Shown: piece after piece, positions 4,608-60,342 of the stretch
Numbering within the stretch: the first letter of the stretch is position 1
How the letters are laid out: each line of letters begins with the position of its first letter
NCBI GenBank assembly: GCA_963719225.1
Contig: CAVRAY010000001.1
Location: 1,248,001 to 1,312,000 of the forward strand
Source of the DNA: Thermoanaerobaculia bacterium
GTDB lineage: Bacteria; Acidobacteriota; Thermoanaerobaculia; UBA5066
DNA length: 64,000 nt
Reading direction: 5' to 3'
Notes under the pieces: generated by a model
Told to the model about the DNA's origin: nothing
Database searches by the model: none
The model's input: the letters and a program-made list of their open reading frames with translations, nothing else
Program-made: the position numbers and the translations under genes

Positions 4608-5588
4608 GTGAGCCGCTCGAAGCGCTTGACGAGGAGCCGGGCGACTCGGGCGCTTCTATTGATTCTGATTGTCGCTCCGGCAGTCGCGTGGCGCGCGAAG
4701 GCCGAGGAGAGCTCGTTGTCCATTCCCATCGGCACGCTCCGAGCCGGTGATGTCGTGGTCCTCGGGAAGCAGTTTTTCTTAGAAGGTGAATTGGAAGGGA
4801 GCGCCGTGCTCGTCGGAGGAAGCACGGCGGTCGTGTCGGGCCGCATTCATCGCGACCTCATCCTCCTCGGCGCGAACGCGACGGTTCGCCGCGGCGCCCG
4901 CATCGATGGCGACGTGCTTTCCGTCGGCGGTTCTCTCACCTTCGAAGAAATCCCCGGTGGTCACTCTTCGGACGTGACGACGAGCACGACCACGGCGCAA
5001 GTGGGGGGGCACGTCCGCACGATCACCGCTCTCGAGGCGGCCGTCGTCTCCGAGCTCGAGACCTCTCCGCTGACGTCCGGCAGGACCTCGCCGCTCGTTC
5101 TTTCCTTCCGCCTGTTTCTGCTCTTCTGCTGGCTCGTCGTCTCCATCGGACTCCTCTATCTCGCCCCCCGCCAGGTCCTTCGTGCGGCGGACGGGTCGCG
5201 CGGCCGCCTCGCGTTTCTCGCCGCGCTCGGCGCGACCGCGGTCTTGACCGCGCTCCTCCTCGCGGCCTTCGCTCTGTCGATCCTCCCGGCTCGTCTCGCG
5301 CTCGCCCTCGGCGTGGCGCTCCTCCTCGCGCTCGCCGCCGCGAAGGTCTTCGGTCTCGCGGCGCTCTTCGTCGTCCTGGGCCGCCGCGCGACGCCCCGCG
5401 CCGTGCGCGGCGATCTCCTGTTCGGAGACCCGGCGGCGCTCGCGGCCGGCCTTCTCCTCCTCGGCCTCGCGTCTCTCGTGCCCGTCGCCGGCCCTCTCGT
5501 CTGGAGTCTCGCGTCGCTCGCGGGAATCGGCGTCGCTCTCGCGGCTGTCGTGTCGCGCGAGCCGCGCCTCGTGCTCGCCGCCTCCTGA
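4608..5588 (+). CDS. Bactofilin-like (polymer-forming) beta-helix domain plus multi-pass membrane domain protein
   Basis: Signal peptide, repeated GDVVVLG / GSAVLVGG / RDLILLGA / GDVLSVGG units, then about 5 TM helices. Confidence 0.65.
4764..4955. repeat. Intragenic convergent motif pair
   Basis: Forward TTTTTCTTAGAAGGTGAA (4773-4790); reverse TCACCTTCGAAGAAATCCCC (4936-4955). Confidence 0.7.
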
Positions 5589-5640
5589 TAGGCTCCGGCG
5601 AGAGCCCTCCAAAGGGGCCTCGAAGGAGATCGAGATTCCG

Positions 5641-6516
5641 ATGACACAGGCAACGATCGGCGTCGTGGGCGCCGGACAGATGGGTGCGGGCATCGCGCAC
5701 GTGGCGGCGCTCGCCGGGAAGAAGGTCGTTCTGGTCGACGTGACGCCCGACGTCGTGGGAAAAGGGCTCAAGGGGATCGAGAAGAATCTCGCGCGTCAGG
5801 TTGATAAGGGCAAGGTCACGGCCGCGGACCGGGACGCCGCCCTCTCACGCATCGTCGCGACGGCCGACCAGTCGCGGCTCGCCGAGGCCGGCCTCGTGGT
5901 CGAGGCGATCGTCGAGAACGAAGCCGTCAAGAAAGACCTGTTCGCTCGCCTCGACGCGCTCGTGCCGCCTCTCACGATCCTCGCGACGAACACGTCGTCG
6001 ATCTCGATCACGCGCCTCGCCGCCGGCACCAATCGGCCAGAGCGCTTCATCGGGATGCACTTCATGAACCCCGTGCCCGTCATGGCGCTCGTCGAGGTGA
6101 TCCGCGGCATCGCGACGTCGGACGAGACCACCGAGGCCGTTCTCCTCCTCGCCAAAGAGCTGGGGAAAACGCCGCTTTTGTGCCGCGACTTCCCCGGCTT
6201 CGTCGCAAACCGCATCCTGATGCCGATGCTGAACGAGGCGTTCTTCGCGGTGCACGAGGGGGTCGCAACTCCCGAGGCCGTGGACGGGATCATGAAGCTC
6301 GGCATGAACCATCCGATGGGACCGCTCGTCCTCGCCGACTTCATCGGCCTCGACACGTGCCTGGCGATCCTGCGCGTCCTCCATCAGGGGCTCGGCGACG
6401 ACAAGTACCGCCCCTGCCCGCTCCTCGTCCAGATGGTCGACGCCGGCTGGCACGGCCGAAAGACGGGCCGCGGCTTCTACCGCTACGACGGGCCGGGAGG
6501 CGAGAGGCTTCCGTGA
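5641..6516 (+). CDS. hbd: 3-hydroxybutyryl-CoA dehydrogenase
   Basis: [51 protein letters not shown] and DFIGLD motifs. Confidence 0.93.
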
Positions 6517-56788: not shown

Positions 56789-56830
56789 GGCGCCGGCGAT
56801 CTTACGCGGGGAGGGTGTAAAACACGTCGC

Positions 56831-57409
56831 GTGCCGCTCGGCTCGTCCTTCTACGGTCTCCTCACGAAGCGCGTCGGGCGGGCGCGCCTTTCCGCGGCGC
56901 TCCCGCACGTGCCTCCCGGGGCGCGCGTCCTCGACGTCGGATGCGGCCTGACCGACCTCCCCGACCGGATCGCGGACTACGTCGGCTGCGACCGCAACGC
57001 CGAAGTGCTGGCGTCCCGGAGGGGGAGATGGCCGAAGAAGGATTTTTTCGAATGGGACATCGGCCGAGGCCCGGCTCCGCCCGAGCTCGAGGCGAGGGCG
57101 CCTTTCGAAGGGATTCTCCTTCTCGCCGTCCTCGAACACGTCGCGGACCCGGCGGCGATCCTGTCCCGCCTCTCTTCTCTTCTTTCTCGCGGCGGATGTC
57201 TGATCGTCACCACCCCGCACCCGGCGGGTCGCTGGGCGCTCGAGGCCGGGGCCGCGCTCCGCCTCCTCTCCACGCACGCCCGGGACGAGCACGAGAGCCT
57301 CCTCGGGCGCACGGCCCTCGAGGAGGCAGGCCGGTCGGCCGGAATCTCCCTCGTCCTCTACCGGCGTTTCCTCTTCGGCCTGAACCAGCTGGCGGTGTTC
57401 TCCCGGTGA
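56831..57409 (+). CDS. Class I SAM-dependent methyltransferase
   Basis: [16 protein letters not shown] and GGCLIVTTP motifs. Confidence 0.85.
57034..57124. repeat. Intragenic convergent motif pair in the methyltransferase
   Basis: Forward GAAGAAGGATTTTTTCGAATGGGA; reverse CCTTTCGAAGGGATTCTCCTTCTC. Confidence 0.55.
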
Positions 57410-60342
57410 GCCGGGCGCGTCCCGTTTCGCGCGCCGCGTCCGCGATCACGGTCGTGAACGCGCGCACCCACAACCTCAAGAACGTGACGTGCGCTTTTCC
57501 GGTCGGCGCGCTCACGGTCGTGACCGGTCCTTCCGGCTCGGGGAAGTCGTCGCTCGCGTTCGACACGCTCTACGCCGAGGGCCAGCGCCGGTTCGTGGAG
57601 TCGATGTCCACGTACGCTCGGCAGTACCTCGAAAGGCTCGAGCGCCCGGACGTGGACCTCATCGAGCACGTCCTGCCCGCGCTCGCGATCGAGCAGAAGG
57701 CTCCCGCGCGATCGGCGCGTTCCACGGTCGGGACGGCGACCGAGATCCACGACGTCCTGCGGCTCCTCTTCGCGGCCGCCGGCACGCTGCGGTGCGCCGA
57801 CGACGGGACACTCGTTCGCCGCCACACCGTCGAAGGGATAAGGGACATTCTGCTTTCGGAGTGGGGCGAGGGCGCGCGGGTGCTCGTGATCGCGCCGCGA
57901 AAAGTCCAGTCGTTCGAGGCCGAGAGCGCAGAGTGGAGAAGACTCGGTTTTTTCCGCTATGTCTCCGCTTCGGGGGACGTTCTGGAAATTTCTTCGAATG
58001 GAAAAGAGACGGAGAAAGCGGCCGCGCCGCTTGCGGCCTTCCCGCTGCTCGTGGGGCGCCACGTGCTTGCGGCCTCCGATCCGGAAATCCTCTCTTCACT
58101 TTCAATGGCATTCGACGCCGGAGACGGTGAGCTTCTTGTGCTGAAATTCGGAGGGGGTCTTGCCTCGGCCCGCCGCTTCCGCCGCGGCCTCGTGTGCGAC
58201 GTGTGCGGGCGGCGCTTCACTGATCCGGTTCCCGCGCTCTTCTCCTTCAACTCGCCTCGAGGCGCGTGCGAGACGTGCCAGGGTTTCGGTCGTGTGACGG
58301 GCATCGACGCGGCACGCGTCATCCCCGACCCGGCGAAGTCGCTCCGAGAGCGGCCGATCGCGCCGTTCAACTCGCCGGCCTACGAGAGCGCCTACGACGA
58401 CCTGAAGGTGGTCTCGCGGCGCCACAAGCTGCGCTGGGACGTGCCGTGGAACGAGCTGACGCCGCGCGAGCGGGACGTCGTCTGGAAGGGTTCGGGCGAC
58501 TGGTATGGGGTCGAAGGTCTCTTCAAGTACCTCGAAAAGAAGCGGTACAAGGTGCACGTGAGGGTCCTCCTGTCGCGCTATCGCGGCTATACGCCGTGTC
58601 CCTCCTGCGGCGGGGCGCGCCTGAGAAGCGAGGCGCTCGCGGTGACGCTCTCCGGCAAGACGATCGCCCAGGTCGCAGCCCTCACGCTCGACGAGCTCCT
58701 CGTCTTTCTGGCCGGCGCTCTTCCCGGCGGCGAGGAGCGCGCGCGGGGAGCGTCGCTCGTCGAGGACCTCCGGCGTCGCGTCGGAACGCTCGTCGAGATC
58801 GGCCTCGGGTACCTCACGCTTTCGCGGACGATGCGGACGCTCTCGGGCGGTGAGGCCCAGCGGATCCAGCTCGGCGCGGCGATCGGGAACGCTCTCACCG
58901 GCACTCTCTACGTGCTCGACGAGCCCACGGTCGGCCTCCATCCGCGCGACACGCACCGGCTCCTCGGCGTCCTCGAGCGCCTCGCGGCCGGCGGAAACGC
59001 CGTCGTCGCCGTCGAGCACGACACGGACGTCATCCGCGCGGCCGACCACGTCATCGACCTCGGGCCGGGCGCGGGAGCACGCGGCGGGCGCCTCGTGTTC
59101 GAGGGGACGCCGGGGGAGCTGGAGAAGGCGGACACGCTCACGGGGAGGTCGCTGAGGAGGGAGACCGAAGAAAGAGAAGAAATTTTTGCTTCGGAAAGGG
59201 AAAGAGACGGCAAGCCGTATCGGCCAGGCGCTCCGAGCGAACTCATCGCAGCCGAAACGTCGCGCGCCTTCGGCGCTTTCTTAGAAGGGGGTATGAGGTC
59301 TGCGGCGCTCGAGCCGGGCACCGAAGCGATCCGTGTCCTCGGCGCGCGAGCAAACAATCTTCAAAATATTTCCGTCGACTTTCCCCTTCACCAGCTCGTC
59401 GCGGTGTCCGGAGTGTCGGGCTCGGGGAAGTCGTCGCTCGTCGTGGACGTGCTCGCGGCGGGTGCCCGGCAGCGCATGGGGAAGGGGCTTCTCCCCGGCG
59501 TGGACGAGGTGGGCGCCCACGACGCGATCGAGGGGCTCGACCGCGTCGCCGAGGTCATTCTCGTCGACCAGTCTCCGCTCGGGCGCTCGTCCCGCTCGAA
59601 CGCGGCGACGTACACGAAAGCCTGGGACGAGATCCGGACGCTCCTCGCCCGCGCGGGCTCCGCGAAGGCGCGCGGCCTCGAAAAGGGCGCGTTCAGCTTC
59701 AACGCTCCCGGCGGGAGGTGCGAGCGCTGCGAGGGGGCGGGCGTCGTCACCGTGGACATGCAGTTCCTCGCCGACGTGACGGTCGTGTGCGACGTGTGCG
59801 ACGGGCGCAGGTTCAAGCCCGAGGTGCTCGAGGTGAGGCTCAGAGGGCGGAACGTCGACGAGCTCCTCGCCACCACCGTCGACGAAGCGCGCGAGCTCTT
59901 CGCCGACGTACGGGTGATCTCGGACCGGCTCCAGCCGCTCGCGGAAGCCGGGCTCTCCTACCTGACCCTCGGTCAGTCCACCGGAACGCTCTCGGGCGGC
60001 GAAGCCCAGCGGCTGAAGATCGCGTCGTTCCTCAGGGGCGGGGGGCCCGACGAGCCGGTTCTGTTCATCTTCGACGAGCCGACGACCGGACTGGCGCCTT
60101 CCGACGTGGACGTGCTCCTCGCGGTCTTCCGGCGCCTCCTCGCGGCGGGTCATTCGATCGTTGCCGTGGAGCACCACACGGGTTTTCTCGCCCGCGCCGA
60201 CACCCTGATCGAGCTCGGGCCCGGTGGCGGCCCCGCGGGCGGCCGCATCCTGTTTTCAGGCCCTCCGGCGGCTCTCGCGGCTCTCGGCGGAACTCCGACG
60301 GCCGACGCGCTCCGGGGCCGGGTACAATTTCCGTCACGGTGA
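57406..60342 (+). CDS. uvrA: Excinuclease ABC subunit A paralogue (UvrA2-type)
   Basis: [45 protein letters not shown] twice, GVSGSGKSS and zinc-finger CxxC pairs. Confidence 0.93.

What the first reader, a model, noticed from the sequence alone, without database searches (positions are those of the whole stretch)
4764..59390. Dispersed AT/purine-rich motif written into coding sequences as convergent forward/reverse pairs
Seen: a motif close to GAAGAGAAGATTTCTT(C/A/T)GAAGGTGAA recurs inside unrelated genes, usually as a forward copy followed by a reverse-complement copy. Pairs: 4773/4936 (bactofilin-like), 14387/14465 and 15458+15503/15671 (acyl-CoA ligase), 22155/22211 (proS), 26346/26501 and 27168/27281 (GT2), 51498/51609 (mutY), 57034/57101 (methyltransferase), 57984/58081 and 59167+59277/59351 (uvrA). 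Apparent singles lie at 27605 and 49488; several copies are degenerate. The DNA between partners is ordinary, unrelated coding sequence. The motif is translated in different frames and strands (EEKISSKV, FFLEGE, DLLRRVK, TFEEIS, YLSKKS, PFKENP, FTFKEKS) and uses codons such as TTA and AGA that are rare in the surrounding genes, which points to constraint on the DNA or RNA rather than the protein. Inference: paired sites for an unknown DNA-bridging, wrapping or chromosome-organising protein (by analogy to matS, SBS, NBS or parS, but bipartite), a long-range mRNA stem, or the footprint of a process that writes the motif into genes. I do not recognise it as a described element.
Basis: partly seen in the sequence, partly recalled or inferred. 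Interest (0 to 1): 0.88.

Follow-up and report, generated by a model that had tools for sequence, protein, structure and literature searches.

The report
Facing DNA pairs graded toward terminus
One uncultured genus of Acidobacteriota carries about 830 copies of a short directional DNA word, three quarters of them as facing pairs written into genes and spacers and several times denser near the replication terminus than near the origin, which likely marks docking sites for a still unidentified chromosome-handling protein.

Summary
The motif is real and genome-wide. A profile (purine tract, TTTCTT-N-GAAGG core, purine tract) finds 834-844 strong sites against 13 in a Markov null. 76% have a facing partner within 30-300 bp; 2% have one behind. 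Synonymous shuffling cuts 154 facing pairs to 2-6. The word is abundant in 14 of 14 genomes of the genus, sparser in a sister genus, and at background in 235 other genomes of the class. In orthologues it is held by fixed rare codons, and was gained by substitution or small insertion. Partner arms do not covary and show no mRNA-strand bias, so an RNA stem is unlikely. Pair spacing has two modes, about 76 and 136 bp, without helical phasing. Density rises toward a dif-like site, also in non-coding DNA, without replichore polarity. No Y1 transposase, MatP or histone fold was found in this genome.

The parts
4762..4796 (+). forward site (centre 4780) in ORF 4608-5588, no family hit
   Evidence: 34.1 bits
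4929..4963 (-). facing partner (centre 4945), spacing 165
   Evidence: 28.6 bits
14380..14414 (+). forward site (centre 14398), acyl-CoA ligase codon 119
   Evidence: 31.1 bits
14459..14493 (-). facing partner (centre 14475), spacing 77 (first mode)
   Evidence: 37.9 bits
15455..15489 (+). forward site (centre 15473), ligase-hydrolase linker
   Evidence: 28.5 bits
15500..15534 (+). second forward site (centre 15518), 45 bp after the first
   Evidence: 38.4 bits
15673..15707 (-). facing partner (centre 15689), spacing 171
   Evidence: 44.4 bits
   Evidence: 15.5 bits
22148..22182 (+). forward site in proS codons 331-335; >=12 bits in 15 of 18 genus orthologues
   Evidence: 12.9 bits
22209..22243 (-). 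facing partner in proS codons 348-354; present in 18 of 18 genus orthologues, 0 of 11 from other families
   Evidence: 32.5 bits
   Evidence: 40.4 bits
26495..26529 (-). facing partner (centre 26511), spacing 141 (second mode)
   Evidence: 26.1 bits
27159..27193 (+). weak forward arm (centre 27177)
   Evidence: 6.1 bits
27277..27311 (-). reverse site (centre 27293)
   Evidence: 27.2 bits
27604..27638 (+). single forward site in a group-1 glycosyltransferase gene
   Evidence: 19.8 bits
51489..51523 (+). forward site in mutY-like gene (minus strand), codon 314
   Evidence: 32.8 bits
51604..51638 (-). facing partner, codon 276, spacing 113
   Evidence: 21.2 bits
57030..57064 (+). forward site in methyltransferase gene; partner at 57108 is weak (4.9 bits)
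   Evidence: 21.8 bits
57976..58010 (+). forward site in uvrA codon 197, also present in G169; no scoring partner
   Evidence: 33.9 bits
59173..59207 (+). forward site in the uvrA inter-domain linker, which is 25-33 aa longer than in G123/G065
   Evidence: 24.9 bits
59264..59298 (+). second forward site, 91 bp downstream; reverse arm at 59364 is weak (3.3 bits)
   Evidence: 15.7 bits

Best explanation
The word is a directional double-stranded DNA site kept by selection, and it is likely read as a head-to-head pair by an unidentified, lineage-specific chromosome-organising protein that would act most in late-replicating DNA near the terminus. Shown: one orientation grammar (facing, almost never back to back); conservation at synonymous positions; gain and loss by point change and small insertion in tolerant protein loops and spacers; spacing modes near 76 and 136 bp; a symmetric rise toward the dif-like site. 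Inferred: two bound complexes would bracket 65-250 bp of arbitrary DNA, wrapping or tracking along it rather than forming a rigid phased loop. The roughly 60-bp step between modes (also seen, more weakly, in tandem spacings near 28 and 85 bp) would be the footprint of one extra unit. Also inferred: the benefit would be compaction or segregation of the chromosome arms, weak per site, so sites are scarce in highly constrained genes and missing from the island-like stretches checked.
For: Pairing: 76% versus 2%; adjacent sites <=400 bp apart are 307 facing and 19 back to back; 83 versus 7 in 400 kb of G227; 8 versus 0 in 600 kb of G169. Selection on DNA: fourfold-degenerate A/T in the core is identical in G227 77% of the time versus 10% in background; proS I331 is ATT in 18 of 18 orthologues versus 7% elsewhere in the gene; 75 of 87 genic sites are kept in G227, 11 of 36 in G169, 0 of 81 in G161. 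Configuration outlives position: downstream of parB2, 16 of 27 genus loci hold a facing pair, at spacings of 52-129 bp (one 282); only 24 of 83 G227 pairs match an orthologous G000 spacing. DNA rather than RNA: 323 sense versus 325 antisense, same profile for both. Gradient: Spearman -0.59, p 1.6e-8 against distance from dif; in non-coding DNA 36.5, 52.8, 71.4, 99.4 sites per 100 kb from origin to terminus; same trend on the long contig of G292. Second spacing mode: scan p 0.01, and 6 versus 1.5 expected among 59 G227 pairs not sharing a G000 spacing.
Against: No reader was found. MatP and two histone families gave no match. No gene stood out in the dif-syntenic block, though outgroup coverage there was partial. 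A general periodicity test of spacing was not significant (max-statistic p 0.12); the 60-bp step rests on two peaks, and no third appears at 192-201. Paired sites are not kept better than singles (59 of 67 versus 16 of 20, p 0.46), nor modal spacings better than others. 204 of 504 clusters are single sites. The gradient also fits weaker constraint or a replication-timed drive near the terminus. Genomes of one genus share ancestry and synteny, so the replications are not independent. G072 and G268 carry only 9-10 exact words, so a large site set is dispensable in close relatives.
Confidence: 0.5

Rival explanations
1. Uptake-signal drive: the word is a DNA uptake sequence like DUS/USS. A surface receptor prefers DNA with facing sites, and biased uptake plus recombination writes them into tolerant sequence with no job inside the cell.
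For: Gain by point change in unconstrained coding DNA and enrichment in non-coding DNA match what PMC1939737 (passages) says of DUS/USS. ComEC is present. ComM-like and PilT/PilQ-like motifs were seen by pattern, and ComEA-like and DprA-like genes were named from recall of their sequence. No sites in three island-like or rRNA stretches checked.
Against: That paper says only about 10% of uptake sequences occur as inverted repeats; here 76% are paired, in one orientation, with two spacing modes. ComEC is also present in motif-free relatives (18 of 19 genomes). Donor DNA copy number would be expected to favour the origin, not the terminus (inference).
Confidence: 0.2
2. Catalytic two-site system: each site loads a helicase, translocase or nuclease in one direction and two must meet, as at yeast origins with opposed ORC sites or with type III restriction enzymes (the latter recalled). 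The pairs would be restart, unwinding or processing points needed late in replication.
For: Head-to-head orientation, a floor near 65 bp and no helical phasing suit tracking enzymes. A/T at fourfold sites is 0.17-0.18 across the spacer versus 0.11 genome-wide. Opposed ORC sites: search listing only.
Against: No such enzyme was identified. GC skew shows one origin and one terminus. Part of the spacer A/T excess is also seen at the same positions in motif-poor G072 (0.11-0.13 versus 0.087, small n).
Confidence: 0.13
3. The reader is the dif-adjacent ParB paralogue (ParB2), a Noc-like clamp whose specificity shifted in this lineage.
For: The gene lies beside the dif-like site. Of 6 clade-diagnostic columns among 272, two correspond to ParB/Noc specificity positions 179 and 201 (PMC7383237 passages). 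The core resembles ParB-type half-sites (parS seen; NBS recalled).
Against: ParB2 is in 55 of 60 family and 38 of 38 class genomes. G027, G087 and G021 carry the same two residues yet have 1, 3 and 3 exact words. The conserved DNA contacts N178 and R204 are E and L in all 47 family rows and 30 class rows. The candidate was picked after seeing the data.
Confidence: 0.07
4. Long-range RNA or single-stranded DNA stem: the purine arm comes first on either strand and pairs with the later pyrimidine arm, for example to mask Rho-loading sequence.
For: The arms can pair at about -22 kcal/mol, and the purine-first order would suit co-transcriptional folding (inference). Two rho-like genes were seen by pattern.
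Against: True partners are no more complementary than shuffled ones (identity z 0.67; -22.61 versus -22.55 +/- 0.35, 307 pairs). The mRNA strand is not favoured (p 0.48; G-U 389 versus 371, 183 pairs). Singles are 59 sense versus 57 antisense. No Rfam match in the window.
Confidence: 0.05
5. Relics of a miniature mobile element or REPIN whose ends are the two arms.
For: Site windows carry >=3-aa insertions versus motif-poor orthologues in 21 of 61 rows (rows not independent), against 77 of 1654 background windows. Contigs of relatives in two runs replace a 129-nt spacer by 72 nt.
Against: Longer spacer matches are between paralogues or between the two species copies in C2; the rest are short. 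In proS and other genes the spacer is the orthologous coding sequence. No Y1 transposase in G000 or 5 of 7 other genus genomes, while 11 of 11 other relatives have one, with unrelated ends.
Confidence: 0.05

Closest known systems
DNA uptake sequences (USS of Pasteurellaceae, DUS of Neisseriaceae)
   Same: Clade-specific asymmetric word in hundreds to thousands of copies, in genes and spacers, built by point change in tolerant sequence, no strand bias (PMC1939737 passages).
   Different: Here 76% of sites are in facing pairs (about 10% inverted there), with two spacing modes and a gradient toward dif. No receptor was found.
AIMS / KOPS (FtsK-orienting motifs)
   Same: Abundance rises toward the terminus (PMC5993296 abstract).
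   Different: AIMS are leading-strand-biased 8-mers. This word is about 35 bp, paired, and has no replichore polarity (unpaired sites 63/58 and 68/52). The genome has separate skewed G-rich octamers.
matS/MatP, SBS/SlmA, NBS/Noc, parS/ParB
   Same: Dispersed protein sites whose placement follows the origin-terminus axis (recalled); quasi-palindromic core.
   Different: Those are single palindromes in tens of copies confined to or excluded from a region (recalled). Here there are about 830 directional sites in pairs along a smooth gradient. No MatP match; an ordinary parS sits at the origin.
REP/REPIN with RAYT; Ssn nuclease motifs
   Same: Inverted doublets about 70-140 bp apart (recalled).
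   Different: Two thirds or more of sites are in coding DNA, spacers are host sequence, arms are not hairpins and do not covary. No Y1 transposase in G000, and only the UvrC-type GIY-YIG is shared across the genus.
Opposed ORC sites at yeast origins; head-to-head sites of type III restriction enzymes
   Same: Two asymmetric sites in facing orientation with loose spacing (ORC: search listing; type III: recalled).
   Different: No homologous machinery was sought or shown; an analogy of geometry only.

Membership tests
DUS/USS | over-represented clade-specific word in coding and non-coding DNA, gained by point change | tested here: met
DUS/USS | mostly unpaired (about 10% inverted) and evenly spread | tested here: not met
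   76% paired; gradient toward dif; comparison from PMC1939737 passages
DUS/USS | competence machinery present | tested here: met
   ComEC in G000 and in 18 of 19 genomes, motif-free ones included
DUS/USS | sequence-specific receptor pilin (ComP type) | tested here: inconclusive
   no match, but no control genome matched either
DUS/USS | word raises DNA uptake | not testable with these tools
   needs a transformation assay
AIMS/KOPS | abundance rises toward the terminus | tested here: met
AIMS/KOPS | leading-strand bias | tested here: not met
   both strands equal on both arms
matS/MatP | MatP encoded | tested here: not met
   no PF06303 match; the E. coli control matched; G000 is 97% complete
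matS/MatP | sites confined to a terminus domain | tested here: not met
   sites occur along both arms
NBS/Noc (ParB paralogue) | ParB paralogue present | tested here: met
   ParB2 beside the dif-like site
NBS/Noc (ParB paralogue) | specificity residues Q-K-K-R, or residues that track the motif | tested here: not met
   R-A-R-R; the same residues at 179 and 201 occur in three motif-free genomes
REP/REPIN-RAYT | RAYT gene flanked by the repeat | tested here: not met
REP/REPIN-RAYT | extragenic, with covarying arms | tested here: not met
Ssn/NTS | small GIY-YIG nuclease shared by motif carriers | tested here: not met
   one long GIY-YIG protein per genome in 17 of 18 relatives; the extra short ORF is in G000 only, at C2 805 kb
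histone-based wrapping | histone-fold gene | tested here: not met
   PF00808 and PF09123 no match, controls matched; other bacterial histone families not searched
intragenic invertons / programmed excision | flipped or deleted spacers in reads of the same strain | tested here: inconclusive
   no run holds this strain
type III / McrBC-like two-site enzymes | cognate enzyme tracking with the motif | not tested
   only loose sequence patterns tried, without controls

The most novel reading that the evidence does not exclude
A bacterial chromatin code: a lineage-specific protein binds facing sites that bookend a particle wrapping DNA in steps of about 60 bp (76 and 136 bp). Several hundred such positioned particles are written into the genes themselves and graded from origin to terminus, without a recognisable histone, MatP or Noc.
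Probability: 0.22. Interest if true: 0.93.

Novelty: new variant of a known kind. Interest (0 to 1): 0.74.

Why it matters
Known bacterial chromosome signals are single palindromes or strand-biased octamers. A two-site, orientation-dependent signal strong enough to change protein sequences in hundreds of genes, with two preferred spacings and a gradient toward dif, points to a DNA-handling machine I could not match to any described system. The sister genus spans 9 to 92 exact words and outgroups are at background, so the origin and spread of such a code can be followed across genomes.

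Tried and rejected
RNA stem: no covariation, no strand bias. 10.5-bp phasing of spacing and A/T dinucleotide periodicity in spacers: none. The 93-bp spacing peak: 16 of 17 are kinase paralogues, so it was capped at 3 and left out. Two distinct arm classes: no association. Gene clusters around a reader gene: the densest clusters hold ordinary genes. ParB2: failed the class-wide control. Y1 transposase, small GIY-YIG, MatP, two histone families: not found or not tracking the motif. Subtractive search near dif (682 G000 genes against 600 kb of G169 and about 630 kb of outgroup DNA): no candidate, coverage partial. 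Viral contigs: 31 single hits in contigs of 24-50% GC, read as chance. The 'Burkholderiales' hit is a different hairpin repeat. Sequencing runs: no RNA holder listed; four DNA runs hold only relatives, so excision and inversion are untested. A different paired word in other lineages: none in G161, G072, G087, G021, G023, G022 (80-200 kb each); G027 has tandem-repeat arrays of another class. The plasmid search and cluster look-up gave nothing useful. The codon-score terciles are confounded, because the motif lowers the score.

Full report
Observation. The window is C1:1248001-1312000 of G000 (4.75 Mb, two contigs, 68% GC). An iterated 35-position profile converged on a purine tract, TTTCTT-N-GAAGG, and a second purine tract. 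It scores 844 positions at >=18 bits against 13 in an order-5 Markov genome of the same size; after merging overlaps there are 834 sites. Nineteen sites >=14 bits lie in the window.

Pairing. Among adjacent sites within 400 bp, 307 face each other, 19 are back to back and 122 are tandem. Of 834 strong sites, 76% have a reverse site >=12 bits 30-300 bp ahead and 2% have one behind. In called genes there are 539 sites and 154 facing pairs; five synonymous shuffles gave 71-87 sites and 2-6 pairs. Gene calls come from my own hexamer model, which misses some genes that carry the motif. Of 958 sites >=14 bits, 648 are in called genes, 113 in uncalled ORFs and 197 intergenic.

Distribution. The exact 12-mer occurs 80-266 times in 14 of 14 genomes of genus g1, 39 and 4 times in two genomes of g10, and 0-7 times in the other 235 genomes drawn from the class. 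A looser word gave 261-460 in 6 g1 genomes, 9-92 in 8 g10 genomes and 0-7 in 14 other family members. Of the 80 loci listed (121 returned), 79 are titled Acidobacteriota or Thermoanaerobaculia, and the exception is another repeat. The class of G000 is inferred from this. Three unpublished genomes (G019, G188, G192) are inside the outgroup tallies; no claim depends on them alone.

Selection on DNA. In proS the reverse site is present in 18 of 18 genus orthologues and the forward site in 15 of 18; neither is in 11 orthologues from other families. Rare codons are fixed there: ATT 18 of 18 (7% elsewhere in the gene), AGA 13 of 18 (1%), CTT 16 of 18 (7%), GAA 16 of 18 (14%). Across 286 genes aligned to G227, A/T at fourfold-degenerate core positions is identical 77% of the time, against 10% in background. 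Genic sites are kept in G227 75 of 87 times, in G169 11 of 36, in G161 0 of 81; paired and single sites did not differ. Sites favour tolerant places: protein identity to motif-poor orthologues is 0.35 in site windows versus 0.66, and 21 of 61 windows carry a small insertion (rows not independent). Only 24 of 83 G227 pairs share a spacing with an orthologous G000 pair, and 27 have no G000 pair. The pair downstream of parB2 persists in 16 of 27 loci while its position and spacing drift.

DNA, not RNA. Sites are 323 sense and 325 antisense, with the same profile. True partners are no more complementary than shuffled partners, and the mRNA strand has no pairing advantage. Rfam has no match in the window.

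Spacing. Few pairs are closer than 65 bp, and there is no 10.5-bp phase. After capping the kinase paralogues at 93 bp and dropping the second half of C2, spacings peak at 72-81 and 132-141. The second peak has a scan p of 0.01 and recurs among 59 G227 pairs that do not share a G000 spacing (6 versus 1.5 expected). Tandem spacings cluster near 25-33 and 83-92. Against this reading, a general period scan was not significant (p 0.12) and no third peak appears at 192-201. A/T at fourfold sites is raised across the whole spacer and to about 90 bp outside. Weak tandem copies and low constraint may explain part of that.

Chromosome position. dnaA, parS and parB lie at C2 326-335 kb. C2 is chimeric: its second half holds an inverted copy, about 78% identical, of its first part, so it was dropped from distance analyses. 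A dif-like site (consensus recalled) lies at C1 2037574-2037594 beside a second parA-parB operon, near the GC-skew maximum at 2.10 Mb. Sites per 200 kb fall from 67 to 12 on one arm and from 59-71 to 23-33 on the other (Spearman -0.59). In non-coding DNA they rise from 36.5 to 99.4 per 100 kb toward the terminus. G292 shows the same trend in the 100 of 125 forward words listed. There is no replichore polarity. No sites were found in the rRNA region, the first 52 kb of C1, or a 60-kb stretch near the terminus.

ParB2 looked promising: two of six clade-diagnostic columns correspond to ParB/Noc specificity positions (PMC7383237, passages). The control went against it. It is class-wide, and three motif-free genomes share both residues. 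Y1 transposase, a shared small GIY-YIG, MatP and two histone families were not found in G000 or did not track the motif. A partial subtractive search near dif gave no candidate.

Mechanism. The shown features are orientation dependence, DNA-level selection, turnover with the configuration kept, two spacing modes and the gradient. I infer a protein that needs two facing sites and brackets the DNA between them, acting most in late-replicating DNA (0.5). Rivals: uptake drive 0.2, a catalytic two-site loader or nuclease 0.13, ParB2 0.07, RNA stem 0.05, mobile relic 0.05.

Literature. Read: PMC1939737 (passages), PMC5993296 (abstract and outline), PMC7383237 (passages). The ORC papers and bioRxiv 10.1101/2025.05.08.652872 were seen as search listings only. 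No supplements were read. Four searches aimed at this element or at a dif-linked ParB returned no paper, and one search listed none on it. The library lacks most subscription journals. Statements on matS, SBS, NBS placement, REPINs, Ssn, type III enzymes and KOPS are recalled. The 136-bp mode and the dif-anchored gradient are not in the lines of those three that I saw.

Noticed in passing
G000 C1:2037574-2039524 (L075, L080): A second parA-parB operon. The ParB2 protein is in 38 of 38 class genomes; a dif-like site lies just downstream in most of the family loci read. Its ParB has E and L at the usual DNA contacts N178 and R204. A paper search found nothing on it.
   Followed up: partly
G000 C2 (about 600-800 kb versus 7-220 kb): The contig is chimeric: an inverted copy about 78% identical, with a second tmRNA, probably from a related species.
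   Followed up: partly
L330-L333 (G027); also G201, G205, G295: Facing arrays of tandem 7-mers and 8-mers, mostly at gene ends; 472 hits genome-wide in G027. A different, species-level repeat class.
   Followed up: partly
G000 C1:2033781-2035120 and 8 more copies: A 1.34-kb IS-like element in 9 near-identical copies carries one unpaired motif site near one end.
   Followed up: no
G000 C1:2293328-2319611: A tandem array of about nine long Ser/Thr kinase-like genes, most with a 93-bp facing pair near the 5' end.
   Followed up: partly
L252-L259: Y1/RAYT-like transposase genes bounded by 28-45 bp terminal inverted repeats in 7 or more of 8 loci, in all 11 non-g1 relatives tested but only 2 of 8 g1 genomes.
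   Followed up: partly
window 59173-59382: The uvrA linker is 25-33 aa longer than in G123 and G065 and longer still in G169; contigs of relatives swap the stretch between the flanks.
   Followed up: partly
G000 C1:953702 and C1:3852363: Two rho-like genes, found by sequence pattern only.
   Followed up: no
L199:260-360: A purine/pyrimidine double-hairpin repeat in a genome titled Burkholderiales contains the core word in both hairpins.
   Followed up: no
window 32196-40817: A large GH94/glucoamylase/GT2 gene (cyclic glucan synthase-like by recall) with a response-regulator domain at its end; no motif site lies between 27640 and 51400.
   Followed up: no
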